Assembly: GCA_041599855.1 (NCBI GenBank)
Contig: JBFILE010000002.1
Location: 1 to 35,630, forward strand
Source of the DNA: Thermoplasmatota archaeon
Lineage (GTDB): Archaea > Thermoplasmatota > SW-10-69-26 > JACQPN01 > JAJPHT01
Reading direction: 5' to 3'
Length of the DNA: 35,630 bases
In this document: positions 1,844-35,630 of the stretch, one piece after another
Layout of the letters: each line of letters begins with the position of its first letter
Position numbering within the stretch: the first letter of the stretch is position 1
Notes under the pieces: generated by a model
Database searches by the model: none
What the model was told of the DNA's origin: nothing
Seen by the model: the letters and a program-made list of their open reading frames with translations, nothing else
Program-made: the position numbers and the translations under genes

Positions 1844-1876
1844 GGCCCCCCCTCCCCGAGGTGGGGAGAGGGGGCC
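1844..1876 (-). terminator. intrinsic-terminator-like hairpin after gene 1889..2134
   Basis: GGCCCCCCCTCCCC / GGGGAGAGGGGGCC, 13 of 14 bp paired, 5-nt loop, followed on the coding strand by UUCUUCGUUCU. Confidence 0.6.
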
Positions 1877-1888
1877 GGTGGGGGAGGG

Positions 1889-2134
1889 TCAGTCGTAGGT
1901 GATGGAGGTGATGGGTGATGTCCGGATGGGCTCGCGCGCTTCTCCTACGAGGCCAGCGAGGGGGCGACCCACCTCGATCGGGCCGATGGCGGTGAAGTCC
2001 TCGGCCTCGATGAGGTCGTAGCGGGCCTCCCCATCGGGGCCGACCATCACGGAGTCCGAGACTCGGGTGATGGTATCCCCGCCGATGATGTAGTAGGTGC
2101 TCCCGGAGGTGGTGGTGATTGTCGTGATGTCCAT
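1889..2134 (-). CDS. hypothetical protein (81 aa), leaderless
   Basis: Track ORF 1889..2173 trimmed to ATG 2134 (MDITTITTT...), 7 nt downstream of the TATGGT of promoter cassette P1. The upstream residues MLTLERQACMVTL are translated promoter DNA. Confidence 0.65.
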   Translation of the reverse strand: MDITTITTTSGSTYYIIGGDTITRVSDSVMVGPDGEARYDLIEAEDFTAIGPIEVGRPLAGLVGEAREPIRTSPITSITYD

Positions 2135-2171
2135 GAGTGTAACCATACACGCTTGACGCTCAAGAGTCAAC
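2132..2171 (-). promoter_or_regulatory. class-1 promoter/operator cassette P1
   Basis: -35 TTGACT (2170..2165), 17-nt spacer, -10 TATGGT (2147..2142), 7 nt, ATG 2134. Two mismatches to the P2/P4 40-mer. Confidence 0.7.
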
Positions 2172-4882: not shown

Positions 4883-5007
4883 GAGTTGCGGAGGGGGTCC
4901 TTCAGGATTTCGGCGAGGTGTTCGGCGGGCCCGATGTCGATGGCGTACCGCAGGCGGAGGACGGCCACGGCGAGGTGGAGGGCGAAGGCGAAGGCGAGGC
5001 GTCTCAC
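4879..5007 (-). CDS. hypothetical small membrane-like protein (42 aa)
   Basis: Below the track cutoff. GTG 5007..5005 overlaps the TGA of 5004..5477 (GTGA) and its TGA overlaps the primase ATG (ATGA). Hand translation VRRLAFAFALHLAVAVLRLRYAIDIGPAEHLAEILKDPLRNS, with a hydrophobic N-terminus. Confidence 0.35.
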   Translation of the reverse strand: MRRLAFAFALHLAVAVLRLRYAIDIGPAEHLAEILKDPLRNS

Positions 5008-5477
5008 GCTGCGGCGTTCCGGAGGCGGGTGGCGGCGGAGTGGCGGCGCTTATTGATCTTCGAGAGCGGCCAGCCGAGAAACTCGGCGGCCTGGCGGTGG
5101 GTCATCGGGTCGCCCTCGAATCCGTAGAGGAGGCGGAGCGTTACTCGCTCCTCGATGCTGAGGGAGGCGAGGAGGTCGCCCACGTCGGCGGCCAGCCGGT
5201 CCTCGGCCTCGATATCGGCCTCGGTGCGGTGGTCCTGCGTGAAGCTCTGGAGAGCGTCGTACCCGTTCGAGAAGTAATCGGTCACGATGGGGCGGCGCTT
5301 GTCCACCAAGGGGCCGCGCTGGCGGTTGTGGGGGTGGAGGGGGTCGTCCAGCGGAGAGACGGCCTGGCGGGCCTCTGCGGGGGAGAGGCCTTCGAGGCGG
5401 TGGAGGAAGTACCCCTGCCTTACGTCCTCGTTCGTAATGTCACGGGCCTCCTCGATGAGGGCGTTAGCGTCGATCAT
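5004..5477 (-). CDS. sigma-70 region-4-like HTH protein (possible phage sigma factor or -35-type DNA binder), 157 aa
   Basis: C-terminal LSIEERVTLRLLYGFEGDPMTHRQAAEFLGWPLSKINKRRHSAATRLR fits the sigma70 region 4.2 pattern. No clear region 2 seen by eye. ATG 5477 lies 3 nt after a class-2 motif copy. Confidence 0.7.
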   Translation of the reverse strand: MIDANALIEEARDITNEDVRQGYFLHRLEGLSPAEARQAVSPLDDPLHPHNRQRGPLVDKRRPIVTDYFSNGYDALQSFTQDHRTEADIEAEDRLAADVGDLLASLSIEERVTLRLLYGFEGDPMTHRQAAEFLGWPLSKINKRRHSAATRLRNAAA

Positions 5478-5480
5478 GAT

Positions 5481-5513
5481 GGAGGTGTCGGCCCCGAGGT
5501 CGAGCGGTGCCCA
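5481..5513 (-). promoter_or_regulatory. class-2 bipartite motif, copy b (upstream of the sigma-like gene)
   Basis: TGGGCAC-N14-GCCGACACCTCC, then 3 nt, then ATG 5477. Confidence 0.55.
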
Positions 5514-5521
5514 GACGCTAA

Positions 5522-5553
5522 GAAGCCCCCCACCTCGGAAGGCGGGGGGCTTC
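5522..5553 (-). terminator. hairpin after gene 5564..5830
   Basis: Perfect 10-bp stem GAAGCCCCCC / GGGGGGCTTC with a 12-nt loop. Confidence 0.55.
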
Positions 5554-5563
5554 GGGGGGAGGC

Positions 5564-5830
5564 TCAGAGGAGGACCGTGGTCCCGTTCCGCACGTCGAAG
5601 GCTACGTCCTGGTCGGCCACGATGCCGAGGAGGGCTTCGGCGGCCCGGAAGTCCATCCCGTGCTCCATGAGCATTGAGGCGGCCCGGTTGCCGGTGGCCG
5701 TGCGGAAGGCTCCGTCCCGGAACATTCCGAAGACGGCGAGGTCATGGCCGAAGTTCGAGGCGCTACCCGGGGCGAGGCGCTCCAGGCGGACGGCGAGAGT
5801 GTCGGTGCGGGTGGGGTGGGTCGTGTTCAT
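5564..5830 (-). CDS. hypothetical protein (88 aa), leaderless
   Basis: Track ORF 5564..5866 trimmed to ATG 5830 (MNTTHPTRT...), 7 nt downstream of the TATGGT of cassette P2. Confidence 0.65.
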   Translation of the reverse strand: MNTTHPTRTDTLAVRLERLAPGSASNFGHDLAVFGMFRDGAFRTATGNRAASMLMEHGMDFRAAEALLGIVADQDVAFDVRNGTTVLL

Positions 5831-5867
5831 AGGTGTAACCATACACGCTTGACGCTCAAGAGTCAAC
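5828..5867 (-). promoter_or_regulatory. class-1 promoter/operator cassette P2
   Basis: -35 TTGACT (5866..5861), -10 TATGGT (5843..5838), ATG 5830. The 40-mer is identical to P4. Confidence 0.7.
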
Positions 5868-5947
5868 GTCCCACGGGAGATTTCTTCGGCGGTACCGGCG
5901 GAGCGCTCGGAGGGTGACCTCGTGCCAGATGTAGCGGGCCTCGCGGA

Positions 5948-7454: not shown

Positions 7455-7461
7455 CCTCGGT

Positions 7462-7494
7462 GTAGGTGTCGGCCCGAGGTGGCCGCGGTGCTCA
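7462..7494 (-). promoter_or_regulatory. class-2 bipartite motif, copy e (not coupled to an ATG)
   Basis: TGAGCAC-N14-GCCGACACCTAC. The TGA is the stop of the exonuclease gene. It is followed by hairpin 7431..7454 and an SD-led GTG gene. Confidence 0.45.
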
Positions 7495-8323: not shown

Positions 8324-8728
8324 TCAGAGCCACTCGCCCAGGTCGTCGGCGTCGTCGCCACTGAACGCCCCCACGTCGTCCAGGATCACGCCCTGGTCGA
8401 TCAACCACTCCACGAGGCGGGCGTAGGTCACGCCCTGCGGGGTCGTGCGGCCCGTGCCGTAGTAGCTCCCACCCGAGCGGATGAAGGCGTAGCGGAGGGT
8501 GATCGTCTCGCCCTCGTCGAACCCGAGCCCGGGCTGGCAGCGCTCGAAGGTGATGATGTCGCCATCGGTGCACGGGTCGTCGGTGCCGAAGTCTTCGAGG
8601 CTCTCCTCGATGCGGGCACGCTCGGCGGCGGCGGTCTGCTCAGCGCGGACCGAGGTGGCGGTGAGCGACGGGGGAAAGTGGGGGATATCCAGGTTGGCCC
8701 GGATGGTGATTTCGTTAAGTGATGCCAT
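8324..8728 (-). CDS. hypothetical protein (134 aa, acidic C-terminus)
   Basis: Track ORF. ATG 8728 lies 3 nt after a class-2 motif copy and has no SD. Confidence 0.75.
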   Translation of the reverse strand: MASLNEITIRANLDIPHFPPSLTATSVRAEQTAAAERARIEESLEDFGTDDPCTDGDIITFERCQPGLGFDEGETITLRYAFIRSGGSYYGTGRTTPQGVTYARLVEWLIDQGVILDDVGAFSGDDADDLGEWL

Positions 8729-8731
8729 GGG

Positions 8732-8764
8732 GGAGGTGTCGGCCCCCCACGGGCCCCGTGCTCA
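8732..8764 (-). promoter_or_regulatory. class-2 bipartite motif, copy c
   Basis: TGAGCAC-N14-GCCGACACCTCC, then 3 nt, then ATG 8728. The TGA is the stop of 8762..9328. Confidence 0.55.
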
Positions 8765-9328
8765 GGGCTTGAGTGCTTCGCGAAGCTCGCGCACGTCGGC
8801 GGCTAGCTCGCGCACTGCATCCACGGCGGCCTTACGCTCTGCGAGGCTCGACCCATGAGCCTGGACAGTCGCCAGGGCCACGGCCTCACGCGCCCTACGG
8901 ATGGCGGCGAGGAGGGAATCCGGCGGGCCCAGGCCGACCTCGCGGGCGCGGCTAATCAGGTTCGCCCGGGCGGCCTCGATACGCTCACGAGGGGAGACGA
9001 TGCGGAGCCCCGCGGCTTGAAGCTCCTCAGGCGTGAGGGTCTCGCGGAGGAGGTTCCCCACGTGGTAGCGGAGGCCGTTCTTCACGGCGGCCAGCGCGTC
9101 CTCGTCCACGCCTGAGGCCTCGTACACGGCGCTCATGACCTGGCGGTACTCCCAGGAGCGGCCAGCGGGGTCATCGTACCCCATCCGGAGGCGTACCACC
9201 TGGGCGGCCATCTCCCGGAGGATTTCCGAGGAGGGCTTAGCGGCGTAGGCCTGGATGAGGCGCGTTATCAGGTTCGCCACGTCGGCCATGGGCGGGAGGG
9301 TAGTCCCCCCGCCCATGCTCGGCGTCAT
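8762..9328 (-). CDS. hypothetical helical protein (188 aa)
   Basis: Track ORF 8762..9433 trimmed to ATG 9328, which overlaps the TGA of the upstream gene by 1 nt (TGATG). Confidence 0.7.
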   Translation of the reverse strand: MTPSMGGGTTLPPMADVANLITRLIQAYAAKPSSEILREMAAQVVRLRMGYDDPAGRSWEYRQVMSAVYEASGVDEDALAAVKNGLRYHVGNLLRETLTPEELQAAGLRIVSPRERIEAARANLISRAREVGLGPPDSLLAAIRRAREAVALATVQAHGSSLAERKAAVDAVRELAADVRELREALKP

Positions 9329-10092
9329 CACTGCTCTACCTTGAAATCGGAGGCGCACTCTGAGCACGTAATCCCGCCCGCTTCCAGGACAGCGGCCGAG
9401 GCCCGGATGATGCGGGGCTCCTCGCACGAGCACGTGGCCTTCAGGTTCGAGCGGGAGGCGGGCTTCTTCGGCGTCTTCGGGAGGTCGGGGTTCTCCCCGT
9501 TGCCCTTCGTGCCGCCCTTGCCGGTCACGAGGCCGAGGCGCTCGAAGGTATCGAGGTGGGCGTGAATGGCCTTATCCAGGGCCTCTATCACCTTGGCGTG
9601 CTTCTTGATCGTGTCCTCACGGAGGACGACGGCGGAGAAGCCGATCGAGACATCGGGGGACTGGCCCTCGGGCCACTCCATGCCAAGCTCCTCGGCCAGG
9701 GCCACGAACTTCTGATTATGGTAGCGGAAGCCCCTAGAGGTGTCCTGCACGCCCCGCACGACCGCGAGAGCGTGGACCGCTTCGTGGACCATGGTGGCGA
9801 AGGTGTCGGTCGCCCCGCACGCCAAGCGCTCGCCTGCGATGAAGATTTCCGGGAGGCGGCCAGCCTCATCGGTCACGGTGCCATCCTGGCGGAGGACCCA
9901 GCGGTCGGCCCCGTAGTGGCCCCACTTCGCCCCTCTGCCCATGAGGCCGGTCCCGGTGATGAAGAGGACCTCGGGGAGGTCGGGGTGGGCCTTGCGGAGG
10001 GAGGCGTAAGCCTTCTCCATGGCCTTGACGACGGTGGAGCCTGCCATACCTTCGAGGTTAGCGACCTTGCGGGGAGCGGTTGCGGTTGTCAT
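9328..10092 (-). CDS. SprT-like zinc metalloprotease-domain protein (254 aa), leaderless
   Basis: Track ORF 9328..10197 trimmed to ATG 10092, 7 nt downstream of the TATGGT of cassette P3. HEAVHAL (HExxH) motif and a C-terminal CSC...CSEC zinc ribbon. Confidence 0.8.
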   Translation of the reverse strand: MTTATAPRKVANLEGMAGSTVVKAMEKAYASLRKAHPDLPEVLFITGTGLMGRGAKWGHYGADRWVLRQDGTVTDEAGRLPEIFIAGERLACGATDTFATMVHEAVHALAVVRGVQDTSRGFRYHNQKFVALAEELGMEWPEGQSPDVSIGFSAVVLREDTIKKHAKVIEALDKAIHAHLDTFERLGLVTGKGGTKGNGENPDLPKTPKKPASRSNLKATCSCEEPRIIRASAAVLEAGGITCSECASDFKVEQ

Positions 10093-10129
10093 AGGTGTAA
10101 CCATACACACTTGACGCTTGAGTGTCAAC
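10090..10129 (-). promoter_or_regulatory. class-1 promoter/operator cassette P3
   Basis: -35 TTGACA (10128..10123), -10 TATGGT (10105..10100), ATG 10092. The central hexamer of the dyad is inverted relative to the other copies. Confidence 0.7.
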
Positions 10130-10140
10130 CTGAGAACGCA

Positions 10141-10172
10141 AGAATCCCCCCAGATTTCTCCGGGGGGATTCT
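10141..10172 (-). terminator. hairpin closing the late/lysis unit, immediately upstream of P3
   Basis: Perfect 11-bp stem AGAATCCCCCC / GGGGGGATTCT. The loop contains AGATTTCT. Confidence 0.65.
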
Positions 10173-10222
10173 TCGGCCCTAGGTTCGCTCGGAGCAAATC
10201 CGAGTCTCAGCGGGCGGGGGGT

Positions 10223-10614: not shown

Positions 10615-11204
10615 GGGGGGGTGGTGCCTTTCAGGAGATGGCGGACGATATCGGTGGCGGGTGCTCGGAGGTCCTCAATGGTGCCGAAGTTCTCCACGAG
10701 AATGTCAGGGGTGAAGTTGTTAAGAGCGGTCTCGGAGACGTGAGCGGTCACGGGGTCTACGTCCCGGACCACCTTGACGAGAGCGCTTACGCGGACGTGG
10801 CGGACGGCGTGCACCTCGTTCGGGAAGCGAACGTCGGTGAAGACCACGGGCCCCTCGATCTGGGAGGCCCGCTCCACGGCCAGGCGGACCCAGAAGTCCG
10901 GGCTCATGGCCCGCACGGCGTCGGTGCCGATTCGCTGGAGTAGGCGGCGGATATCGGGGTAGTTCCGCTTCGCCCACTCCCATCCCTGCTCCCTCACGAT
11001 GTTCGAGAGGCGGGCGGTCGTGGTGGCGTCGTGGATATAGGGGTCAATGGCGAGGGCCATCTCCCGCACGTTGTCGGCGAAGGCCACGCGGGTGAAGCCG
11101 AAGCTCTCCACGAGGATGGCGGCGAGGGTGTCCTTCCCGGCCCCGGCGGGCCCGTACAGGCCTACCCATGGGGGGAGGTGGTAGTTAGATGGTGGGGCTG
11201 ACAT
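10611..11204 (-). CDS. deoxynucleoside monophosphate kinase-like P-loop protein (197 aa)
   Basis: GLYGPAGAGKDTLAAIL Walker A followed by FAD, typical of phage dNMP kinases. ATG 11204 lies 3 nt after a class-2 motif copy. Confidence 0.8.
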   Translation of the reverse strand: MSAPPSNYHLPPWVGLYGPAGAGKDTLAAILVESFGFTRVAFADNVREMALAIDPYIHDATTTARLSNIVREQGWEWAKRNYPDIRRLLQRIGTDAVRAMSPDFWVRLAVERASQIEGPVVFTDVRFPNEVHAVRHVRVSALVKVVRDVDPVTAHVSETALNNFTPDILVENFGTIEDLRAPATDIVRHLLKGTTPP

Positions 11205-11207
11205 GAG

Positions 11208-11240
11208 GGGGGTGTCGGCCCCACCATCTAGACGTGCTCA
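11208..11240 (-). promoter_or_regulatory. class-2 bipartite motif, copy d
   Basis: TGAGCAC-N14-GCCGACACCCCC, then 3 nt, then ATG 11204. The TGA is the stop of 11238..11471. Confidence 0.55.
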
Positions 11241-22449: not shown

Positions 22450-22469
22450 CTTGACGCTGAAGAGTCAGG
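22450..22469 (-). promoter_or_regulatory. promoter-less class-1 dyad copy S5
   Basis: + strand CTTGACGCTGAAGAGTCAGG, 17/20 identical to the class-1 dyad. No -10 follows. Covers stop codon 22465..22467. Confidence 0.5.
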
Positions 22470-22767
22470 CGTCCTCGTCGGTCTCGGTCAGGTCCACAAT
22501 CGGGGCGTCGGCGGCCTCGCCGAGAAGCTCGGGGGCGTGGAAGGTGATAACGCCCTCGGAGGCGGTCTCCACCTCTTCGGCCACGGATGCGGTCTCCACC
22601 TTCTTGGCGGCGGCCTTCTTGGCGGCGGCCTTCTTGGCAGGCTTGACGGCCTCCACGTGGCCGGAGCGGATGAAGCCCTCGGCGGACTCCTCGCTCAGGT
22701 CGTAGGTCTCGCCTACCCGGTAGGTGGCCTGGACGGTGGCGAAGTTCTGGACGGCGCGGACTTTCAT
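22465..22767 (-). CDS. hypothetical head-module protein with AKKAAAKKAAAKK tract (100 aa)
   Basis: Track ORF. GAGGGAG SD upstream of ATG 22767. Its stop codon lies inside dyad copy S5. Confidence 0.7.
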   Translation of the reverse strand: MKVRAVQNFATVQATYRVGETYDLSEESAEGFIRSGHVEAVKPAKKAAAKKAAAKKVETASVAEEVETASEGVITFHAPELLGEAADAPIVDLTETDEDA

Positions 22768-26146: not shown

Positions 26147-27601
26147 TTAGAGGAGGACGAGGCGGGCCTCGGGCTCCTCCTCCTCGCGGTAGGCGATGGC
26201 GCGGTGATGGGCCACTACGGCGGCCACGGCGAGGTCGATCTTCTTCGAGGACATCTTCGAGTCCTTCGTGATGCGGCCGCCTCGTGCGTCCTCCTTGAGG
26301 ATGGCGTTCGCCATATGGCGAGAGAGGGCGGCGTCCCCGGTATGGGAGAGCTTCTGCTCTAGGACGTTCTCGTAGAAGGCGGTGGTGGCGGGCACCATAC
26401 GGGCGGGGGCGTTCGTGGGGTATTCCACGATGGGGAGCCCCTCCTCTGCGAGTTCCATGAGGGATTGCTCGAAGCGGTACGGGTCGGCGGCGAGTTCACG
26501 GAGACGGAAGCGGCGGGCCTGCTCGCGGATGCGGGCCTTTACGTCTTCGATCGGGGTACGCCAGTGTGGATCACCGAGCGGGGCCTCCCAGTGTCCGAGG
26601 ACTTCGAGGTGGAGGTCTTCGAGGCGACAGGCCACGAGGGCGGTGGAGTCGCCCTTCCACGCCCCATCGAATCCGAAGACCACCTCGTCCCCATCTTCGA
26701 GGCGGCGGGTGAGGTCCTCGCACTTCGCCCAGGCCCCCGAGGGGAGCCAAGCGGACTCCGCCGAGGTCCACCCATTGAGGCGGTAGCGGATGAACGCAGC
26801 GTTCCCGCCGGTCCGCTGAGCGGTGGCGCGGAGGTCGTCGTAGTTGATGAAGCTGGCCGGGTTCCACAAGCGCCAGAGGTCTTCGTCCAGCGGGTCGAAC
26901 TCCTCGGCGTCGTCGGGCCCGTACCACGTCATCCCCATGAAGGGGTCGTCGGACTCGCCCGATCGCACGGCCTTGCCATGCTGATAGAGGAGCCCGAGGG
27001 GGCTCTCCAGGTCAAAGCCAGCGGTGGTGATGGTCAGGACGAGAGGCTCGTTACGGGCCCCCGAGCCCATGGTCATCGCGTCGTACAGGTCGGTATTCTT
27101 GTGGACGTGGTACTCATCGAAGACCACGAAGGACGGATTCAGACCCTGCTGGAGCCCGGCGTCAGCACTGACGGCCTTGTACTTGCCCCCGTTGATGGTG
27201 CAGAGGATTTCATTCCGGTACACCTTGCAGACGGCCAGGAGGTCCGGGGAGGACTCCACCATGCGGCGGGCCTCGGTGAAGACCAGGCGAGCCTGCTCAC
27301 GGTCTCCGGCGGCCGAGTAGACCTCGGGGGCCGAGTCGGCAGGGTCGGCGATGAGGTGGTAGAGGGCGAGCGCTGCGCCGAGTTGGCTCTTGCCGTTCTT
27401 ACGGGGGAGGCCGAGGAGGTAGGAGCGGTGCTTCCGGCGGCCCCCCGGGCCCACGCGGTAGATGTCATGGATAACGTCCCGCTGCCAGGGCTCCAGGATG
27501 AAGGGCTGCCCGAGGTGCGACTTTCCGAGGGTGATAAAGGTCTCGATGAACCTGATAACACGGTCGGCCCGAGACTCTCCTGAGGTGATGGGTAGGAGCA
27601 T
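26147..27601 (-). CDS. terL: terminase large subunit (484 aa)
   Basis: Walker A-like LLGLPRKNGKSQL, an ATPase then nuclease layout, and the portal gene immediately downstream. Confidence 0.9.
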   Translation of the reverse strand: MLLPITSGESRADRVIRFIETFITLGKSHLGQPFILEPWQRDVIHDIYRVGPGGRRKHRSYLLGLPRKNGKSQLGAALALYHLIADPADSAPEVYSAAGDREQARLVFTEARRMVESSPDLLAVCKVYRNEILCTINGGKYKAVSADAGLQQGLNPSFVVFDEYHVHKNTDLYDAMTMGSGARNEPLVLTITTAGFDLESPLGLLYQHGKAVRSGESDDPFMGMTWYGPDDAEEFDPLDEDLWRLWNPASFINYDDLRATAQRTGGNAAFIRYRLNGWTSAESAWLPSGAWAKCEDLTRRLEDGDEVVFGFDGAWKGDSTALVACRLEDLHLEVLGHWEAPLGDPHWRTPIEDVKARIREQARRFRLRELAADPYRFEQSLMELAEEGLPIVEYPTNAPARMVPATTAFYENVLEQKLSHTGDAALSRHMANAILKEDARGGRITKDSKMSSKKIDLAVAAVVAHHRAIAYREEEEPEARLVLL

Positions 27602-27936: not shown

Positions 27937-29604
27937 TCAGGCGGCGGGGGACACTACGAAGGACGGCCCGGCGGGCGTGACATCGGCGGAGCGCTTGCTC
28001 TCCTGGACCACGGGCCCAGGGAGCGGGCCCTCCACCTTGAGGATGGCCCAGAGCACGCTTAGGAGGGAGACCGAGCCCCCAAACGTCACGGCCCCCAGCG
28101 ATGCGAGGGTGGCCAGGAGGGCCAGGGATGCGGAGCCCCCGAGCGTCGAAGCCCCCGAAGCCCCGAGGGGGGCCAGGCGGCCGAGGACGGCGGAGCCCCC
28201 GAAGGTAGCGGTGGCGGTGGCCAGGAGCGAGCGGGCGGCGGTGATTGCGGCCGAGCCCGAGGCGGTGAACGCCCCAGATGCGGCCAGGATGAGCGGGGCT
28301 GCCCCTAGGCTCAAGGTAGCGGAGCCCGAGGTGGTCAGGTCGCCGGAGGCGGTGAGCGGGCGAGAGGCCACGAGAGTGGCCGCTCCGGCGGTAGCCAGGG
28401 CCCCGGACGCGGTGAGCGGGCGAGAGGCCACGAGAGTGGCGGAGCCCGAGGCGGTCAGGTCCCCGGAGGCGGCGAGTGCGTGCACCTGGCGGAGGGTGGC
28501 GGAATCTCCGAATACGGCCCCGCCTGAGGCGGTGAGGAAGTGCTCGGTGGCGGCCCCGTCGATCACCAGGGCGGCCGAGCCCGAGGCGGTGAGGCTGCCC
28601 GAGGCGGTGAGCGGGGCGGTCCGGTCCAGGGTGGCGGCCCCGGTAGCCGAGACCGAGCCCGAGGCGGAGAGCGGACGCTCAGCGCTCACGGAGGCGGTGC
28701 CCGAGGTGGTCAGGTCGCCGGATGCTGCTACCGCCTGGGAGGTGCCGAGCGCTGCGGTGCCCGAGGTGGTGAGGTCGCCGGAGGCGGTGAGCGGGCGCTC
28801 TGTCACGAGGGCGGCGGTGCCCGAGGTGGCGAGGTCGCCGGATGCTGCGAGCGGGCGAGAGGCCACGATGTCGGCGGAGCCCGAGGTGGTCAGGTCGCCC
28901 GAGGCGGTGAGCGGGTGGGAGGTGGGGCCCCCTCCTGCTAGCTCCTCGGCGGTGAAGTTGTCTACGAAGGGCTGAGAGTAGAGCGAGGAGTAGTTACGCG
29001 TCAGACGAAAGCCCGTCCACGTACCTGAAGGGTAGGTGGAGTCGGTGGTCGAGACCTTCTCCACGCCATTGAGGAAGGCCGTAAGGGTGGAGCCCGAAGC
29101 CTCTAGGCGTACAGTCGCGGCGGAACCCGTATCGGTCCGCCAGTTATTGATACCGAGGTCTGCGAGGGGGATGAGAGCGCTGGAGGCCAAGAGGGTGGGG
29201 ACATCTCCGTCCACCCGGTAAATCTGAACCTTGATCTCCTGGACCCAGGTCCGCTCTAGTACTGCAAGGTACCCGTTGAAGGTGCCCGCCCCCATCGAGG
29301 AGGCGGAGCCTCGAACGATAGGGCCGCCTTGCTGCCCAGCAATGTTCGTGTCACTGCTCTCGGTGTCCACGAAGACATCGAGAGAGGCGGCGTGGTCGGC
29401 CACGGCCTGGGCGGTTTGGTGAATGGCCCACGAGGACCCCACGGTGGACATGTCCACCACGTTGGTGCCGTCAGAGTGCGTGTTATGAGTGTCGAGAGTG
29501 GCGACGCCCCCCGACTGAGCCCAGACCGCCCACGTTCCCGGGGCTGCACTCGCAAGGGTGCTCCCTAGGGTGTAGGCGTTGAAGTTGTCGGTGACGGTGG
29601 GCAC
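27937..29604 (-). CDS. fibre-like protein: N-terminal LamG/ConA-like domain plus about 14 tandem 20-aa repeats (555 aa)
   Basis: GTG start with GGAG 8 nt upstream. The N-terminal domain is bracketed by DNF...FVDNF. Repeats are of the type RPLTASGDLTTSGSATLVAS. The DNA shows a 60-bp periodicity, with exact 32-mers at 28349..28380 and 28409..28440. Confidence 0.8.
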   Translation of the reverse strand: MPTVTDNFNAYTLGSTLASAAPGTWAVWAQSGGVATLDTHNTHSDGTNVVDMSTVGSSWAIHQTAQAVADHAASLDVFVDTESSDTNIAGQQGGPIVRGSASSMGAGTFNGYLAVLERTWVQEIKVQIYRVDGDVPTLLASSALIPLADLGINNWRTDTGSAATVRLEASGSTLTAFLNGVEKVSTTDSTYPSGTWTGFRLTRNYSSLYSQPFVDNFTAEELAGGGPTSHPLTASGDLTTSGSADIVASRPLAASGDLATSGTAALVTERPLTASGDLTTSGTAALGTSQAVAASGDLTTSGTASVSAERPLSASGSVSATGAATLDRTAPLTASGSLTASGSAALVIDGAATEHFLTASGGAVFGDSATLRQVHALAASGDLTASGSATLVASRPLTASGALATAGAATLVASRPLTASGDLTTSGSATLSLGAAPLILAASGAFTASGSAAITAARSLLATATATFGGSAVLGRLAPLGASGASTLGGSASLALLATLASLGAVTFGGSVSLLSVLWAILKVEGPLPGPVVQESKRSADVTPAGPSFVVSPAA

Positions 29605-29616
29605 GGGGTCGCTCCG

Positions 29617-30060
29617 TTAGAACAGAAGGGTGGGCACCCCGTCGAATCGGGCGGCAAAGGTCGGCTCATTAACGAGGACCCAGCGGGAGACCCCTAGCAC
29701 TGTCATATCCCGGAACGTGTTTCGCGCTGCGTCGAACGTAGTTTCGAGGGTGCGCTCCTCAGGTTTCGAGATAACACGGGCCATGTCTGCGGGGCTCGTG
29801 GGGTCCCCGAGGTCGTATGTCCCGGCGGGGGCGGCCACGAGGTCCCGAGCGATAACGAGGAAGTGCAGACGGTTACCGCGCCCATTGAGCGGGGCGCACG
29901 TGTAGGGGCCTGCTATAGCCACGTCGGGGCGGATGGGGTCCGGGCGGTAGGCGAAGGTCGAGGGGAGTCCAGTGTCCGGGTCGGTGGGGTAGGGCGGATC
30001 GAGAGCGATAGGCCCGAGGACTCCCCCCGTGCCCGTGCTCCCGGTAATGAACATACGCAC
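29617..30060 (-). CDS. hypothetical protein (147 aa)
   Basis: Track ORF. GTG 30060 with GGAAGGA 8 nt upstream (alternative ATG at 30054). Confidence 0.6.
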   Translation of the reverse strand: MRMFITGSTGTGGVLGPIALDPPYPTDPDTGLPSTFAYRPDPIRPDVAIAGPYTCAPLNGRGNRLHFLVIARDLVAAPAGTYDLGDPTSPADMARVISKPEERTLETTFDAARNTFRDMTVLGVSRWVLVNEPTFAARFDGVPTLLF

Positions 30061-30082: not shown

Positions 30083-30499
30083 TCAGTCGCCGGTCATGAC
30101 GAGAGCGCCAGCGGCGATCGTGATGGAGTCCCCGTTAGCGGGGTCCTTCGCGGCGTCGGCGGTCCAGTAGAAGGGGAGGTCTCCGGCGGTGCCTGTCGAA
30201 GCCGACACGAGAGCGATATGGGTAACGTTCGCTAGGTCGGCGGTGAAGGGGCCGAAGGTGATAGCGCCCGTGTTCGAGGAACTCGAAGGGTCGCCAGTCG
30301 GAGCGGAGAAGGCCACGGTCTGACGGTTGTATCCGCTTACACCTGGGGTGGCAAGCTCGGCCATCGTCGCCATGCTCGTGGCGTCGGTCGGCGCTGCGGT
30401 GAGGAGCGCGAGGTACATGGTGCGGGCGGTCTGCGTTGCACGACCGCTCATAGCGTCCAGGGCGATATTCGCCCCGGCGGTGGAGGGCTGTCCAGCCAT
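30083..30499 (-). CDS. small tail-fibre/collar-like beta protein (138 aa)
   Basis: The pattern MYLALLTAAPTD...GVSGYNRQTVAFSAP...NTGAITFGPF...VTHIALVSASTGTAGDL recalls a family recurrent in phage tail-fibre modules. This is recognition by eye only. Confidence 0.65.
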   Translation of the reverse strand: MAGQPSTAGANIALDAMSGRATQTARTMYLALLTAAPTDATSMATMAELATPGVSGYNRQTVAFSAPTGDPSSSSNTGAITFGPFTADLANVTHIALVSASTGTAGDLPFYWTADAAKDPANGDSITIAAGALVMTGD

Positions 30500-30536: not shown

Positions 30537-30556
30537 CTTGACTCTTAAGTGTCAGG
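30537..30556 (-). promoter_or_regulatory. promoter-less class-1 dyad copy S6
   Basis: + strand CTTGACTCTTAAGTGTCAGG, 16/20 self-complementary around CTTAAG. Covers stop codon 30552..30554. Confidence 0.5.
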
Positions 30557-31331
30557 AGTGCCCGAGGTGTTCGAGGGTGTAGAGGTTCCGAAGCTCGAAG
30601 TCATAGAAATCCAGGCGGAGCCCGGCGTGGAGCGGGCGATCCCACCACGGGGCCCCCGGTAGCTTCTCGATGACCTCGTAGACCTTCACGCCATCCCAGT
30701 AGATGATGTGGTGCCCCTTACTCGGGACGACCAGGCGGAAGGTATGCCACTCGCCTAGCTGAGCGTCGTGGTCGAAGCCCGTGGGGAGGTAGGTGTAGGC
30801 CCGGGCGATGCCGTAGGGGCCATTGATCTGGCCCGAGGCGCTCCAGCGGTCCTTGCCGTTAGGGGCGAAGCCCGAGACGATGTTATTATCCTCGTCCACG
30901 AAGGCGGGGTGGAAGTTGACGCCCCACTTCCACGTTGGCTCCCGCTGCTCGGTCTCGATCCAAACACGGTCCAGGCGGGAGCGGATGAGGATATCCCCTC
31001 CGAACTCGTAGGGGGGCTCCAGGGCGTCCCGGGTGATGATGCGCGAGTAGACGCCATACGCCCCGAGCTTCACGGTCCCGGCGGCGGTGACGCGGCCCGA
31101 GCGGAGGGTCCCGGACTCGGTGACCACGAGGACGGAGCGACCGCCGCGCTGCTCGATGGCGGAGTTTCCGAGGGGGCCGCGGCCCCAGTAGTCGGTACCA
31201 GTGAAGACCGTTCCCGGGGCCTGCCCCTCGGTCGGGGCTAGGTTGAACCTTACACCTTTCTCGCTCTCGGGGTAGCATGTGTGAGCTACCACGGGCAAGA
31301 AGGCGAGGAGGAAGAAGGAGAGGTACTTCAC
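30552..31331 (-). CDS. secreted ConA-like lectin/glucanase-fold protein with N-terminal signal peptide (259 aa)
   Basis: GTG start. MKYLSFFLLAFLPVVAHTC looks like a signal peptide. WHTFRLVV...HIIYWDGVKVYE resembles ConA-like/GH16-type beta-sandwich proteins. Confidence 0.7.
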   Translation of the reverse strand: MKYLSFFLLAFLPVVAHTCYPESEKGVRFNLAPTEGQAPGTVFTGTDYWGRGPLGNSAIEQRGGRSVLVVTESGTLRSGRVTAAGTVKLGAYGVYSRIITRDALEPPYEFGGDILIRSRLDRVWIETEQREPTWKWGVNFHPAFVDEDNNIVSGFAPNGKDRWSASGQINGPYGIARAYTYLPTGFDHDAQLGEWHTFRLVVPSKGHHIIYWDGVKVYEVIEKLPGAPWWDRPLHAGLRLDFYDFELRNLYTLEHLGHS

Positions 31332-33427: not shown

Positions 33428-34852
33428 TCAGGGGGCCTCGAATCGTACCCTCCCCTCCGCCTTCCCTGAGCGGTCCGAGGCCTTCGAGACGTAGATGGCC
33501 CCCACGGCCTCCCGGAGGAGCTTCTCCCGCTCCGCTGGCCCGTAGGCGGCCCAGACCTCCCCGAAGGTCTCCCCTGTCGCCCTGAAGGCCACGGAGGGAG
33601 GAATGGCGGGTCCTAGTGCCAGGAGGCGGGCGTCTAGAGCCTCAATCTGGCCCAGGATGGCGCGGCGGGCCGTTTCCGACCGGATGCCGACCAGGGAGGC
33701 CCCCAGGTCGTCCAGGGCGGCCAGGAGGTCGGCGCGGTCCTCTGAGCGCTCGTCCGTGGTCTCAATCCTCTCCGTGACATCCCAGGAGCCAAACGTCCCC
33801 AGGAAGAGGCGCTCGACCTCGGCGGCGAGGCGGTCGGCCAGAATGGCGCACCCTGGGCACGGTGGCCCTGTGTAATCGGCGGCCTTCGGGGCGGAGCACT
33901 GGAAGAGTCTATCGGTCACTCGCTCCCCGCTCGATAGGGTTCTATGGCGCGGTTTCGACCAGAGCCTATTCCCACAATGGGCACAGAATGCCAGGCCAGC
34001 GAGGTAGGGGCGCTCCCCGCTCGTAGCCCTCCGGCGTCGGACGCTCACGGCCGCCTGGAGGCGGTCGAAGGTCTCGCGATCGAGAAGGGGCTCCGCTGCG
34101 AGCACTGGGAGGCCATCATCTCCGAAGACCGTGCCCCCGTCCCTCGTGGCGTGCCCTAGGAGGCCTTTCCGGGTGAGCATGTGGCGGATGGCGGTCCTGG
34201 ACCATGCCCGCCCCTTCTGGGCGCTCTGGACGCCCTCAGCATTGAGCCACTCGGCCACGCTCTGGAGGGACGCCCCCGAGAGCGCTCGCTCGATGGCCTC
34301 TCGGAGGATGGGGGCCTCCACGGGGTCGAGTGCGAGCCAATGGCCCGCCCCCGAGGGGTGAGGAGTCGGCCTCCATCCGAATGGGCGCGCCCCGCCCTTC
34401 CATCGGCCCGTGGCGAGTAGGGCGGCCTGCCCTGCCCGGATACGCTCGCGGATGGTCGATAGCTCTAGCTCAGCGAAGACCGAGACCACGCCCGCCATGG
34501 CCTTCCCGATAGGGGTGGTCATGTCGATCGGCTCCGTAGCGCTCACGAGGGCGGTCCCGGCCCTCTCGGCCTCCTGGGCCATCGTGGCGAAGTCCCCCAC
34601 GGAGCGGGCGAGGCGGTCGAGCTTCCAGAAGACCACGGCGTCAAACTCGCCGAGGCGGGCCCTAAGGCGGCGGAGGGCGGGGCGGTCCGTGGAGCCCCCA
34701 CTCTGCCCGAGGTCCTCGAAGACATCCACAAGCTCCCACCCTCGGGCCTGGCATAGTCCAGCGATGAGGGCCCGTTGACGCTCGGGGGAGGTGGAGGAGT
34801 CGGTCTCGCGGCTGAGGCGGACGTAGCCCGCTACCCTGGTCGAATCGGCCAT
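33428..34852 (-). CDS. int: large serine recombinase (integrase), 474 aa
   Basis: N-terminal resolvase domain VAGYVRLSRETDSSTSPERQ with the catalytic Ser, a recombinase domain, zinc ribbon CAHCGNRLW...CSAPKAADYTGPPCPGC, and a C-terminal coiled coil. Confidence 0.95.
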   Translation of the reverse strand: MADSTRVAGYVRLSRETDSSTSPERQRALIAGLCQARGWELVDVFEDLGQSGGSTDRPALRRLRARLGEFDAVVFWKLDRLARSVGDFATMAQEAERAGTALVSATEPIDMTTPIGKAMAGVVSVFAELELSTIRERIRAGQAALLATGRWKGGARPFGWRPTPHPSGAGHWLALDPVEAPILREAIERALSGASLQSVAEWLNAEGVQSAQKGRAWSRTAIRHMLTRKGLLGHATRDGGTVFGDDGLPVLAAEPLLDRETFDRLQAAVSVRRRRATSGERPYLAGLAFCAHCGNRLWSKPRHRTLSSGERVTDRLFQCSAPKAADYTGPPCPGCAILADRLAAEVERLFLGTFGSWDVTERIETTDERSEDRADLLAALDDLGASLVGIRSETARRAILGQIEALDARLLALGPAIPPSVAFRATGETFGEVWAAYGPAEREKLLREAVGAIYVSKASDRSGKAEGRVRFEAP

Positions 34853-34901
34853 GGGGGAGAGTGTACCTCTCCGTCAAGCGCGGGGGTGCCTCGGGGCCCA
34901 C

Positions 34902-35054
34902 GTGCATCTGGTAGCTACGCCGGTGCATATTCGTACCGAGCCGTGCCCCGTAGTGCATCTGGTAGCTACGCCGGTGCATATTCGTACCGAGCCGTGCCCC
35001 GTAGTGCATCTGGTAGCTACGCCGGTGCGTGTTCGTACCGAGCCGTGCCGCTGG
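34902..35054. repeat. 3 x 51-bp direct tandem repeat upstream of int
   Basis: Units start at 34902, 34953 and 35004. Units 1 and 2 are identical and unit 3 diverges at its end. Each carries two GTGCAT hexamers 21 bp apart and the palindrome GTAGCTAC. Confidence 0.9.
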
Positions 35055-35067
35055 CCCCCTGCGCTCA

Positions 35068-35117
35068 GTGTGCCTTTCCGTTAAGCGCGAGGGGGCGTGC
35101 TTGACGGAAAGGGACAC
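35068..35117. repeat. 50-bp imperfect palindrome (19-bp arms, 17/19 complementary)
   Basis: GTGTGCCTTTCCGTTAAGC - 12 nt - GCTTGACGGAAAGGGACAC. The left arm plus part of the loop is duplicated at 34861..34890. Confidence 0.85.
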
Positions 35118-35122
35118 TCCCC

Positions 35123-35356
35123 TCAGGCGGGGGTGACCGTGACGGTCTCGCCCGAGGGGGTGACCATGATGGCCCCGCGGCCCTCGTGGGTGACCTCGGT
35201 AATCTGGAGGTCGATACCCCGGGCCAGGCCCAGGCGGGCGGCGATGCGGCGCTGGAGGGCGATGACTGGGGCCAGGGCGGCGGGGCCCTGCTTCACCTGG
35301 AAGGCGTCCTTCCAGGTCTCGGTGGCGGTGGTGATGGTGACTCGGTGGCTGCTCAT
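35123..35356 (-). CDS. hypothetical protein (77 aa), leaderless
   Basis: Track ORF 35123..35404 trimmed to ATG 35356 (MSSHRVTITTATE...), 7 nt downstream of the TATGGT of cassette P4. Confidence 0.65.
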   Translation of the reverse strand: MSSHRVTITTATETWKDAFQVKQGPAALAPVIALQRRIAARLGLARGIDLQITEVTHEGRGAIMVTPSGETVTVTPA

Positions 35357-35393
35357 AGGTGTAACCATACACGCTTGACGCTCAAGAGTCAAC
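35354..35393 (-). promoter_or_regulatory. class-1 promoter/operator cassette P4
   Basis: -35 TTGACT (35392..35387), -10 TATGGT (35369..35364), ATG 35356. Confidence 0.7.
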
Positions 35394-35422
35394 CTCTCCC
35401 CCAAGATTTCTCAGGGGAGAGG
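35393..35422 (-). terminator. hairpin immediately upstream of P4
   Basis: Perfect 9-bp stem CCTCTCCCC / GGGGAGAGG. The loop contains AGATTTCT. It abuts the -35 of P4. Confidence 0.6.
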
Positions 35423-35433
35423 GGAGACTCCCC

Positions 35434-35630
35434 TCAGGCGGCCACTCGGATGGCGTCGAAGGGGGTCCACTCGGTCGGATGCCCGGGGGCGCTCGTGGTG
35501 ACCGTGAGGTTTCCGTTCCCGTCCTCGAAGAGAAGCCCGGCGGTGAAGGGGCCCTCGATGGTCCCGGCGGCGGTGGTCACGATGACCTCCTGGCCTTCGG
35601 TGAGGGTGTCGGGGGTGGTGATGTCGGTGG
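35434..35630 (-). CDS. hypothetical protein, C-terminal 65 aa (start beyond right edge)
   Basis: Not in the track. Hand translation ...TDITTPDTLTEGQEVIVTTAAGTIEGPFTAGLLFEDGNGNLTVTTSAPGHPTEWTPFDAIRVAA, stop TGA 35436..35434, followed by a hairpin. Confidence 0.5.
   Translation of the reverse strand, partial: TDITTPDTLTEGQEVIVTTAAGTIEGPFTAGLLFEDGNGNLTVTTSAPGHPTEWTPFDAIRVAA

What the first reader, a model, noticed from the sequence alone, without database searches (positions are those of the whole stretch)
35354..35422. Class-1 cassette: four near-identical 40-bp promoter plus dyad-operator units that place an ATG at +1
Seen: the + strand 40-mer CATAGGTGTAACCATACACGCTTGACGCTCAAGAGTCAAC occurs at 5828-5867 and 35354-35393 (identical), at 2132-2171 (2 changes) and at 10090-10129 (4 changes). 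On the coding strand it reads TTGAC(T/A), 17 nt, TATGGT, 7 nt, ATG. That is a near-consensus -35/-10 pair with the start codon where +1 is expected and no Shine-Dalgarno. It implies four leaderless units, starting at 35356, 10092, 5830 and 2134. The -35 is one arm of a 20-bp dyad, GTTGAC-N-CTTGAG-N-GTCAAG. In the 10090 copy the arms are kept but the central hexamer is flipped to CTCAAG. A symmetric protein-binding site tolerates that; plain duplication does not predict it. An A-rich octamer AGAAATCT (AGAAACTT at P1) lies 11-23 nt upstream of each -35 (+ coordinates 2183-2190, 5878-5885, 10152-10159, 35404-35411). Twice it forms the loop of a perfect terminator hairpin. Inference: these are host-sigma early promoters controlled by one dyad-binding regulator. 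I cannot identify that regulator in this window.
Basis: partly seen in the sequence, partly recalled or inferred. Interest (0 to 1): 0.75.

Follow-up and report, generated by a model that had tools for sequence, protein, structure and literature searches.

The report
Leaderless promoter-operator cassettes in an actinophage
Four near-identical 40-bp units in this temperate high-GC phage are most likely host-type promoters that start transcription at the start codon of four small, terminator-bounded genes, and each carries an 18-bp palindromic site that recurs in many distantly related phages encoding one SprT-like protease gene, so they point to a shared regulatory system whose binding protein is unknown.

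Summary
Four units on the - strand read TTGAC(T/A)-17 nt-TATGGT-7 nt-ATG, with no Shine-Dalgarno sequence. All four carry the dyad TTGAC-N8-GTCAA across the -35 and spacer, and an A-rich octamer upstream. Nineteen such cassettes in the window and three related phages keep the same 17-nt and 7-nt spacings. Each drives one ORF that ends in a strong hairpin, so these are single-gene units and not heads of long operons. The dyad is not a by-product of duplication. In 1.67 Mb of loci fetched through the P3 gene product (a SprT-like zinc protease), TTGAC-N8-GTCAA occurs 212 times, against 0-5 times at other spacings. No other protein family is shared by these loci. A DNA-first scan gives the reverse association (odds ratio 61). 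Two more dyads without promoter elements sit at gene junctions in the late operon, with the upstream stop codon inside the left arm, as stoperators do. The binding protein was not identified. The SprT-like protein is the best candidate, by association only. The timing of expression (early or in the prophage) is untested. This is a new variant of the repressor-operator/stoperator kind. It is relevant to related temperate phages whose repressor is still unidentified.

The parts
35354..35392 (-). P4 core: -35 TTGACT (35387-35392), 17-nt spacer, -10 TATGGT (35364-35369), 7 nt, ATG (35354-35356)
35375..35392 (.). P4 dyad TTGACTCTTGAGCGTCAA, covering the -35 and two thirds of the spacer
35393..35422 (-). 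Hairpin directly abutting the P4 -35. The loop and closing pairs hold the octamer AGAAATCT (35404-35411). Likely terminator of the upstream gene, which ends at 35434
35123..35356 (-). P4 ORF, 77 aa, no family match. Followed by the 52-bp palindrome 35067-35118
10090..10128 (-). P3 core: -35 TTGACA (10123-10128), 17 nt, TATGGT (10100-10105), 7 nt, ATG (10090-10092)
10111..10128 (.). P3 dyad TTGACACTCAAGCGTCAA. It differs from the other three only at non-symmetric positions 6, 9 and 10
10140..10173 (-). 15-bp-stem hairpin with T-rich tail, ending the late/lysis transcription unit. Octamer AGAAATCT (10152-10159) at the loop
9328..10092 (-). P3 ORF, 254 aa: SprT-like HExxH protease domain, disordered K/P-rich linker, C-terminal CxC...CxxC zinc ribbon. 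Hairpin at about 9287-9317 just after the stop
5828..5866 (-). P2 core: TTGACT (5861-5866), 17 nt, TATGGT (5838-5843), 7 nt, ATG (5828-5830). Dyad 5849-5866. Octamer 5878-5885
5564..5830 (-). P2 ORF, 88 aa. A homolog in relative L168 also sits behind a cassette
5522..5553 (-). Terminator hairpin GAAGCCCCCC...GGGGGGCTTC closing the P2 unit. A class-2 motif and the sigma-region-4 gene follow
2132..2170 (-). P1 core: TTGACT (2165-2170), 17 nt, TATGGT (2142-2147), 7 nt, ATG (2132-2134). Dyad 2153-2170. Octamer AGAAACTT 2183-2190. The stop codon of the upstream 75-aa ORF (2160-2387) lies inside the dyad
1889..2134 (-). P1 ORF, 81 aa, no family match
1844..1876 (-). 14-bp-stem terminator with TTCTTCGTTC tail, closing the P1 unit
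22451..22468 (.). Junction dyad without promoter elements (- strand CTGACTCTTCAGCGTCAA). TGA of the left arm is the stop codon of the gene 22465-22767. SD GGAGGG and the next start follow
30538..30555 (.). Junction dyad without promoter elements (- strand CTGACACTTAAGAGTCAA). TGA of the left arm is the stop codon of the gene 30552-31331. The next gene starts at 30499

Best explanation
Each unit is a self-contained transcription unit read by the host housekeeping sigma factor. It has a near-consensus -35 (TTGACT/TTGACA), a 17-bp spacer and a TAnnnT-type -10 (TATGGT). Initiation is inferred at the A of the ATG 7 nt further on, giving a leaderless mRNA for a single ORF (77 aa; SprT-like 254 aa; 88 aa; 81 aa). 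A hairpin terminator follows each ORF immediately.

An A-rich element lies at -55 to -48 from the ATG (-67 to -60 at P3). It may act as a UP-like element; this is inferred.

The 18-bp dyad TTGAC-N8-GTCAA spans -36 to -19. It belongs to a widespread site family with consensus TTGACA-N6-TGTCAA, that is, two -35-like hexamers facing each other. A dimeric sequence-specific protein bound there would block sigma region 4 and shut all four units together; this is inferred. The same protein bound at the two promoter-less copies between late genes could act as a roadblock, as stoperators do; this is also inferred.

The binder is not identified. The only protein family that co-occurs with the dyad across very different phages is the SprT-like protein made from P3, whose own promoter carries the dyad. 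It is therefore the leading candidate, for binding or for acting on the bound factor. I put that at roughly 0.25-0.3.

What is shown: sequence anatomy, conservation and association statistics. What is inferred: the start site, binding, repression and timing.
For: - Four copies against 0 expected by chance, and the four best sigma-70 matches on the strand.
- 19 cassettes in the window, L168, L169 and L171 keep the 17-nt spacer. 18 of 19 keep 7 nt to the ATG/GTG, with no SD.
- The region +4 to +33 is 77% A+C, against 63% at other gene starts (p = 3.6e-6).
- Terminator hairpins abut the -35 of P3 and P4, so no upstream transcript is likely to supply a leader.
- Every cassette ORF is followed by a hairpin of -30 to -48 kcal/mol.
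- Dyad: 212 exact sites in 1.67 Mb at spacing 8, against 0-5 at spacings 4-7 and 9-13.
- 47 of 139 SprT-like genes have the dyad (0-1 mismatch) within 150 nt of the ORF start, against 0 in a control region.
- No other shared protein family.
- DNA-first scan: 12 of 18 loci with at least 3 dyads carry the SprT-like gene, against 3 of 94 with one dyad (Fisher odds ratio 61, p = 1.6e-9).
- Arm bases are fixed while inner pairs are complementary in only 27-48% of sites. This fits protein recognition and not an RNA stem.
- P3 differs from the other copies only at non-symmetric dyad positions.
- Junction dyads with the stop codon in the left arm occur in the window and in L168, L169 and L171.
- Literature: related cluster AZ/EH phages are temperate with no identified repressor. 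A frameshift in their SprT-like gene goes with clear plaques (bioRxiv 10.1101/2025.05.26.655371; PMC8758107).
Against: - There are no transcript 5' ends, no binding data and no expression timing.
- In relative L169 all five promoter copies lack the right arm, and so do 3 of 4 in L171. Full dyad symmetry is therefore not needed for a working cassette.
- Only about a third of SprT-like genes have this dyad upstream. Other clades have other palindromes, for example TAGCGTG-N2-CACGCTA.
- The C-terminal zinc ribbon differs between the high-GC and low-GC SprT-like groups although both have the same dyad. The model shows no recognisable DNA-reading domain, and Foldseek found nothing significant.
- The cluster AZ SprT-like protein is a different subfamily, and phage Yang has no such dyad.
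- The contig is incomplete, so a conventional repressor may lie in the unseen part of the genome. The size of that part was not measured; my estimate from the 41-44 kb genomes of relatives is several kb.
Confidence: 0.68

Rival explanations
1. The units are one strong host-type promoter recently copied or homogenised by recombination within the genome. The spacer dyad is then an accident, a -35 hexamer that happens to have an inverted partner, with no regulatory role.
For: P2 and P4 are identical over 40 bp, and similarity runs 28 nt into the ORFs (family D3). That pattern fits copying. Relatives L169 and L171 have working-looking cassettes without the right arm.
Against: The same dyad at the same spacing occurs 212 times in unrelated loci of 30-73% GC. 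It also occurs at promoter-less junctions. P3 changes avoid the symmetric positions. The site count at spacing 8 exceeds that at other spacings by more than 40-fold.
Confidence: 0.07
2. The dyad works as RNA, not as DNA. It would be a short hairpin in read-through transcripts serving as a processing, stability or translational signal placed just before gene starts.
For: In low-GC relatives the site is TTGACAC-N4-GTGTCAA, with 7-bp arms, directly before GAGGAGG-ATG and with no room for a -10. In the window the two junction copies lie inside the late transcription unit.
Against: Arm sequence is invariant instead of covarying. Inner positions pair in only 27-48% of sites. In the window the four promoter copies lie upstream of the inferred start and behind terminators, so they would rarely be transcribed. 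A 5-bp A/U-containing stem is weak at 67% GC.
Confidence: 0.1
3. The dyad is bound by a conventional phage repressor that lies outside this incomplete contig, or is one of the small ORFs with no family match. The SprT-like gene would then be only the most conserved target gene.
For: The window is an incomplete genome (contig length 35,630). Three cassette ORFs (77, 81 and 88 aa) have no detectable family. Leaderless, autoregulated repressor genes are common in temperate phages (established knowledge, for example lambda cI from PRM).
Against: A DNA specificity conserved from 30% to 73% GC implies a conserved reader. Yet no second protein family is shared among dyad-rich loci within 10 kb. The 88-aa protein has almost no relatives.
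Confidence: 0.3
4. A host protein occupies the dyad, and the phages exploit it. It could be a conserved actinobacterial factor, or the housekeeping sigma region 4 itself, since each half-site is the -35 consensus. The SprT-like protease would then act on that DNA-bound host protein.
For: The half-site consensus TTGACA equals the -35 consensus. SprT/Spartan proteases are DNA-dependent proteases that cut DNA-bound proteins (established knowledge; also stated in 10.1101/2025.05.26.655371). Some temperate phages use host repressors (established knowledge, for example GIL01 with LexA).
Against: I could recall no host factor with this site, and this was not tested. The dyad-rich loci span very different GC contents and probably different hosts. 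Myxococcales loci with SprT-like genes have no dyad.
Confidence: 0.12
5. Translation starts upstream, at the ATG inside TATGGT or the TTG of the -35, on a leadered transcript from a promoter further up. The motif would then be a conserved N-terminal coding segment.
For: The ATG inside TATGGT is in frame with the downstream ATG in every copy. One gene caller chose it in relative L168. Longer ORFs exist.
Against: No SD precedes those codons. Terminator hairpins abut the -35 at P3 and P4. At P1 the sequence is the 3' end of another ORF in a different frame. Conservation follows promoter geometry and not codon positions.
Confidence: 0.04

Closest known systems
Repressor-operator/stoperator system of cluster A mycobacteriophages (L5 gp71; TipsytheTRex repressor structure, PMC9283540)
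   Same: One recognition sequence is reused at an early promoter, where it overlaps the -35, and at many short intergenic junctions, where it is proposed to stop elongation. The hosts are actinobacteria. The L5 site itself contains TGTCAAG/CTTGACA (from my memory of Brown et al. 1997; not checked here).
   Different: L5-type sites are asymmetric 13-mers bound by a monomer with an HTH plus a stoperator domain, and they are orientation-dependent. Here the site is an 18-bp palindrome, and no gp71-like repressor was found among the early-region ORFs scanned.
Lambda-type operators and the leaderless cI transcript from PRM
   Same: Dyad-symmetric operators of 17-18 bp overlap the -35 and spacer regions and are bound by dimers. 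A regulatory gene is expressed from a leaderless mRNA.
   Different: There is no divergent promoter pair, no tripartite operator and no Cro/CI-type HTH gene. All genes lie on one strand. Here the half-site equals the -35 consensus itself.
Actinobacterial leaderless promoters (TANNNT followed 6-8 nt later by A/GTG), known from transcription start maps of Mycobacterium and Streptomyces
   Same: Same geometry and no SD. Leaderless starts are common in this phylum (established knowledge).
   Different: Here a near-consensus -35, a fixed 17-nt spacer and a 40-bp block repeated almost exactly four times per genome are added. An operator is built into the block.
Phage morons (promoter-gene-terminator units, as in HK97 and lambda)
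   Same: Single ORFs are flanked by their own host-type promoter and a terminator, and are inserted between other transcription units.
   Different: Morons are usually unrelated to one another. Here all units share one promoter-operator and an upstream A-rich element, and one of them encodes a conserved SprT-like protein.
Protease-coupled immunity modules (ImmR/ImmA of ICEBs1; self-cleaving LexA/CI)
   Same: A protease activity is tied to control of a repressor-operator switch. This is an analogy for the possible role of the SprT-like protein.
   Different: No Xre-type partner gene lies next to it. The protease is SprT-like and not of the M78/COG2856 type. The link to the operator is by co-occurrence only.

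Membership tests
Sigma-70/sigma-A type promoter | -35 hexamer close to TTGACA | tested here: met
   TTGACT (5/6) three times and TTGACA (6/6) once
Sigma-70/sigma-A type promoter | -10 hexamer TAnnnT at 16-18 bp from the -35 | tested here: met
   TATGGT at 17 bp in 4/4. The 17-bp spacing is kept in 19/19 cassettes of the window and relatives
Sigma-70/sigma-A type promoter | Transcription initiates 6-9 nt after the -10 in vivo or in vitro | not testable with these tools
   No RNA data are available
Leaderless mRNA | Start codon at the predicted +1, with no SD and no room for a leader | tested here: met
   7 nt (TACACCT/TACACTC) between the -10 and the ATG. 18 of 19 cassettes keep 7 nt
Leaderless mRNA | Mapped 5' end coincides with the A of AUG | not testable with these tools
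   Needs 5' RACE or dRNA-seq
Dimeric repressor-operator | Dyad-symmetric site overlapping core promoter elements | tested here: met
   TTGAC-N8-GTCAA spans the -35 and spacer with 7 of 9 symmetric pairs. The site is conserved at one spacing
Dimeric repressor-operator | Cognate DNA-binding repressor gene present | tested here: not met
   No Cro/CI, Xre or other repressor family among the early-region and int-proximal ORFs scanned. The only HTH hit is a sigma region 4 protein, which shows no association with dyads. The contig is incomplete and the late structural ORFs were not scanned
L5-type stoperator system | Same site reused at promoter and at short intergenic junctions | tested here: met
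   4 promoter sites plus 2 junction sites in the window. Junction sites also occur in L168, L169 and L171
L5-type stoperator system | Asymmetric 13-mer, orientation tied to the direction of transcription | tested here: not met
   The site is an 18-bp palindrome. The L5 features are taken from PMC9283540
L5-type stoperator system | gp71-like HTH plus stoperator-domain repressor | tested here: not met
   No PHROG or Pfam match among the early-region ORFs scanned
MerR-type promoter control | Dyad between the -35 and -10 with an over-long 19-20 bp spacer | tested here: not met
   The spacer is 17 bp in all copies
Intrinsic terminator (hairpins before P3 and P4 and after each cassette ORF) | GC-rich stem-loop followed by a T-rich tail | tested here: inconclusive
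   Stems are strong. Tails are only moderately T-rich (TTCTTCGTTC, TTCTTAGCG, TTGCGTTCT), and the P4 hairpin runs straight into TTGACT
UP element | A/T-rich block at -40 to -60 that contacts the alpha subunit C-terminal domain | tested here: inconclusive
   AGAAATCT lies at -55 to -48 in three units and one helical turn further upstream in P3. AGAATCT lies at -54 to -48 in L168 and L171. Function not testable
SprT-like protease family (product of the P3 gene) | HExxH motif and SprT-like fold with a zinc ribbon | tested here: met
   H103, E104 and H107 are invariant, as are C221, C223, C243 and C246. Pfam SprT-like matches are weak but occur in 47 of 50 members. AF2 model pLDDT 84.5

The most novel reading that the evidence does not exclude
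The SprT-like zinc-metalloprotease-family protein encoded by the P3 unit is itself the sequence-specific factor for the palindrome TTGACA-N6-TGTCAA. It would recognise a pair of inverted -35 look-alikes, shut off its own promoter and its sister promoters, and block late transcription at junction sites. It would then be the missing immunity or switch protein of a large group of actinophages in which no repressor has been found.
Probability: 0.25. Interest if true: 0.85.

Novelty: new variant of a known kind. Interest (0 to 1): 0.62.

Why it matters
Temperate Arthrobacter and Microbacterium phages of clusters AZ and EH form immune lysogens, yet no repressor gene has been found in them (PMC8758107; bioRxiv 10.1101/2025.05.26.655371). 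This window belongs to that broad group, with distant DNA similarity in the primase/helicase gene and a Yang-like genome layout. It offers a concrete, testable operator: an 18-bp palindrome built from two -35-like hexamers. The palindrome is present at four leaderless promoters and two late-gene junctions. It is conserved at one exact spacing in phages of 30-73% GC. The only conserved gene linked to it is the SprT-like one, whose family has about 1,700 clusters at 50% identity. The operator gives a direct handle (EMSA, pull-down, arm mutants) on how these phages control lysogeny. The cassettes are also compact, terminator-bounded leaderless expression units that could serve as parts for actinobacterial genetics.

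Tried and rejected
- Exact and near matches of the cassette in IMG/VR and in GenBank phages: none. Relatives had to be reached through the P3 protein.
- The window's 157-aa sigma-region-4 protein (5004-5477) as the dyad reader. This was attractive because sigma region 4 reads TTGACA. A sigma4/LuxR-type profile hit only 1 of 22 dyad-rich loci (the window itself) against 6 of 50 dyad-free ones, so I rejected it.
- RNA-hairpin reading of the dyad: arms are invariant without covariation, so it is kept only as a minor rival.
- The second inverted repeat around the -10 (GTGTA-N4-TACAC) as an operator: not conserved in relatives.
- MerR-type control: the spacer is 17 bp, not 19-20.
- Structure route for the SprT-like protein: the model is good, but Foldseek against the PDB gave nothing below E = 0.8 and a sequence profile against the PDB gave nothing.
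- Domain fusions in longer family members: uninformative.
- 88-aa P2 protein: no homologs in the large database. The single-sequence model has pLDDT 52.7 and is unusable.
- Rfam and tRNA scans of the window: nothing.
- Literature searches for the dyad or for SprT-like genes with promoter repeats: nothing. The phiC31 CIR search was uninformative.
Full report
**Setting.** The window is a 35.6-kb incomplete contig of a high-GC (about 67%) siphophage-like genome. All recognisable genes are on the - strand. Only the primase/helicase gene shows DNA similarity to known phages, at 73-79%, to Arthrobacter cluster AZ, Microbacterium, Curtobacterium and Streptomyces phages.

Read on the - strand the gene order is as follows:
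- end of an unknown gene, then a hairpin, then P4 and a 77-aa ORF;
- a palindrome and a tandem repeat, then a serine integrase (33428-34852);
- HNH genes, small terminase, large terminase (26147-27601), portal, and further structural genes including the putative tape measure;
- endolysin and dNMP kinase, then a hairpin, then P3 and the SprT-like protein (9328-10092);
- exonuclease, Gp3-like recombination directionality factor, RusA;
- P2 and an 88-aa ORF, a terminator, then a sigma-region-4 protein and primase/helicase;
- P1 and an 81-aa ORF, a terminator, then DNA polymerase A.

The layout resembles Arthrobacter phage Yang.

**Observation.** The 40-mer is exact at 5828-5867 and 35354-35393, has 2 mismatches at 2132-2171 and 4 at 10090-10129, against 0 expected. 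On the coding strand each copy reads TTGAC(T/A), 17 nt, TATGGT, 7 nt, ATG. These four are the best sigma-70-type matches on that strand. The octamer AGAAATCT/AGAAACTT occurs only at these four places. It lies at -55 to -48 from the ATG in three units and 12 nt further upstream in P3. Strong hairpins with the octamer at the tip abut the -35 of P3 and P4.

The dyad is best described as an 18-mer, TTGAC-N8-GTCAA, with an inner CT..AG pair. The three differences of the P3 copy inside it fall only on the four non-symmetric positions (chance 4/816).

**Are they leaderless promoters?** I could not map transcripts, so the test was conservation. The P3 protein has many homologs. Contigs carrying its closest relatives (57-72% identity) were fetched. 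In L168, L169 and L171 the same cassette recurs 4-6 times per locus. With the window this gives 19 cassettes. All have a 17-nt spacer, 18 have exactly 7 nt from the -10 to ATG/GTG, and none has an SD. A 41%-identical homolog in IMG/VR (L003) has TTGACA-17-TAAGGT-7-ATG.

The 30 nt after the ATG are 77% A+C, against 63% at 31 other gene starts in the window (p = 3.6e-6). CA-rich, unstructured 5' ends are what leaderless translation favours (established knowledge). The upstream terminators leave no source for a leader. The in-frame ATG inside TATGGT follows from the fixed geometry and has no SD. I regard the leaderless reading as well supported but unproven.

**What each promoter drives.** Every cassette ORF, 4 of 4 in the window and 15 of 15 in relatives, is followed right after its stop codon by a GC-rich hairpin of -30 to -48 kcal/mol, often with a TTCT-rich tail. 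The units are therefore monocistronic: promoter, leaderless ORF, terminator. They do not head the replication operons. After the P1 and P2 terminators, and directly after the 189-aa ORF that follows the P3 unit, comes a different repeated motif (class 2, see the notes in passing). That motif probably drives the next genes. Whether the class-1 units are immediate-early or prophage-expressed cannot be decided from sequence. Both depend on the host sigma factor.

**The dyad is conserved far beyond this genome.**
- *Frequency.* In the 168 sequences counted (1.67 Mb: the loci then held, nearly all fetched through the SprT-like protein, plus the window), TTGAC-N8-GTCAA occurs 212 times. The counts at spacings 4-7 and 9-13 are 0, 1, 1, 5, 2, 3, 0, 2 and 0. 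The loci range from 30% to 73% GC, and some carry 9-15 sites in 11-20 kb.
- *Consensus.* The consensus half-site is TTGACA, the -35 consensus. Inner positions are complementary in only 27-48% of sites. This fits base-specific protein recognition and not an RNA stem.
- *Position.* 47 of 139 SprT-like genes have the dyad (at most one mismatch) within 150 nt of the ORF start, against none in a control segment.
- *Other genes.* No other window gene and no other ORF family is shared by these loci. The next largest real family covers 13 loci.
- *Reverse test.* An IMG/VR scan for TTGACAC-N4-GTGTCAA returned mostly single chance hits. Of those, 3 of 94 carried the gene. Of the 18 loci with three or more dyads, 12 carried it, and some of the rest are partial fragments (odds ratio 61, p = 1.6e-9).

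**The dyad is not only a promoter element.** Only 39 of 209 sites have TAnnnT at 16-18 nt. In low-GC relatives the site sits directly before GAGGAGG-ATG. Overall the sites are enriched before gene starts: 33%, against 10% for random positions.

The window itself has two more one-mismatch sites, giving 6 found against 0.21 expected. One lies between the genes ending at 22465 and 30552 and their respective downstream neighbours. In both, the TGA of the left arm is the upstream gene's stop codon, and no -10 follows. The same arrangement occurs between tail or late genes in L168, L169 and L171. L169 keeps this complete dyad even though its five promoter copies have lost the right arm. This distribution, promoters plus short junctions, is that of the operator/stoperator sites of cluster A mycobacteriophages (PMC9283540). 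Those sites, however, are asymmetric 13-mers read by a monomer.

**Who binds it?** No Cro/CI, Xre or gp71-like protein was detected among the early-region and int-proximal ORFs scanned. The sigma-region-4 protein is not associated with dyads elsewhere.

The SprT-like protein is the only conserved companion of the dyad, and its own promoter carries the dyad. It has an invariant HExxH motif and four invariant cysteines. The confident model shows a protease domain, a disordered basic linker and a zinc ribbon.

Two published observations fit a role in lysogeny. Cluster AZ/EH phages are temperate without an identified repressor. A frameshift in the AZ SprT-like gene distinguishes clear-plaque Liebe from turbid Maureen.

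Against direct reading of the dyad by this protein:
- The zinc ribbon differs between the high-GC and low-GC groups that share the dyad.
- No DNA-reading fold was recognised.
- Other clades of the family have other upstream palindromes.
- The AZ protein is a different subfamily, and Yang lacks the dyad.

I therefore give the SprT-like protein about 0.25-0.3 as the binder. The remaining weight is on an unseen or unrecognised phage factor, with less on a host factor.

**Mechanism proposed.** Host RNA polymerase with the housekeeping sigma factor starts at the ATG of four insulated single-gene units. A dimeric factor on TTGAC-N8-GTCAA (-36 to -19) competes with sigma region 4 and turns all four off together. 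The same factor at the late-gene junctions may block elongation. What is shown is the anatomy, the conservation and the associations. The start sites, binding, the sign of regulation and the timing are inferred.

**Novelty.** Repeated promoter-operator motifs, leaderless transcripts and stoperators are known kinds in actinophages. Three things appear new. The first is this particular palindromic operator made of two inverted -35 look-alikes. The second is its conservation at one spacing across very different phages. The third is its exclusive link to an SprT-like gene. I found no report of any of these, though the library searched is incomplete.

Noticed in passing
window - strand, motif ends at gene starts 1794, 5477, 8728 and 11204, plus a copy at 7455-7494 (+ coordinates 1791-1830, 5474-5513, 7455-7494, 8725-8764, 11201-11240): A second repeat family (class 2): CTGAGCAC-N13-GGGGCCGACACCTCC-N3-ATG. 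It also sits at a fixed short distance from the start codon and has no SD. It follows the terminators of the P1 and P2 units and precedes the sigma-region-4 gene itself. Phage Yang has a similar 7-copy family, CGTGAGCAA...GGGGCAACCTTCTCC. These are probably promoters for the phage sigma-like factor.
   Followed up: partly
window 35067-35118: A 52-bp imperfect palindrome made of two 23-bp arms, AGTGTGCCTTTCCGTTAAGCGCG-N6-CGTGCTTGACGGAAAGGGACACT. It lies between the P4 ORF and the serine integrase gene and is a candidate attP. If so, integration would separate P4 and its 77-aa ORF (one prophage end) from int (the other end).
   Followed up: partly
window 34860-34882 (- strand), just before the int ATG at 34852: A third copy of the 23-bp arm, CGCGCTTGACGGAGAGGTACACT. 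It places TACACT, then 7 nt, then the ATG of the integrase. This is the same leaderless geometry as class 1 but without a -35.
   Followed up: no
window 34902-35049: A 51-bp tandem repeat, 2.9 copies at 97% identity, in the non-coding gap upstream of int. Each unit holds two ATGCAC and a GTAGCTAC palindrome. Function unknown.
   Followed up: no
window 27937-29604 (- strand ORF, 555 aa): The ORF carries 60-nt periodic internal repeats in the most GC-rich part of the window (74%). It has no PHROG match and lies between a 147-aa ORF (29617-30060) and a 100-aa ORF that precedes the large terminase.
   Followed up: no
L129, L145, L149, L151 (low-GC IMG/VR loci), next to many dyads: T-arm-like sequences (GGTTCGATTCC with flanking stems) lie directly before or after dyads, but ARAGORN finds no tRNA genes. 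They may be tRNA-like processing signals.
   Followed up: partly
L025, L028, L094, L097, L100 (Streptomyces genomes and metagenomes), about 27 nt upstream of the SprT-like ORF: A different 16-bp palindrome, TAGCGTG-N2-CACGCTA, stands where the TTGAC dyad stands in other clades. This suggests that operator specificity has diverged within the same gene family.
   Followed up: no
L002 (Arthrobacter phage Yang) 34658-34755 and 40499-40596: Two copies of a terminator hairpin followed by a host-type promoter-like sequence (TTGCGA...TACACT/TAGACT). One is upstream of the SprT-like gene gp48 and the other upstream of gp60. The architecture is similar, but there is a leader and no TTGAC dyad.
   Followed up: no
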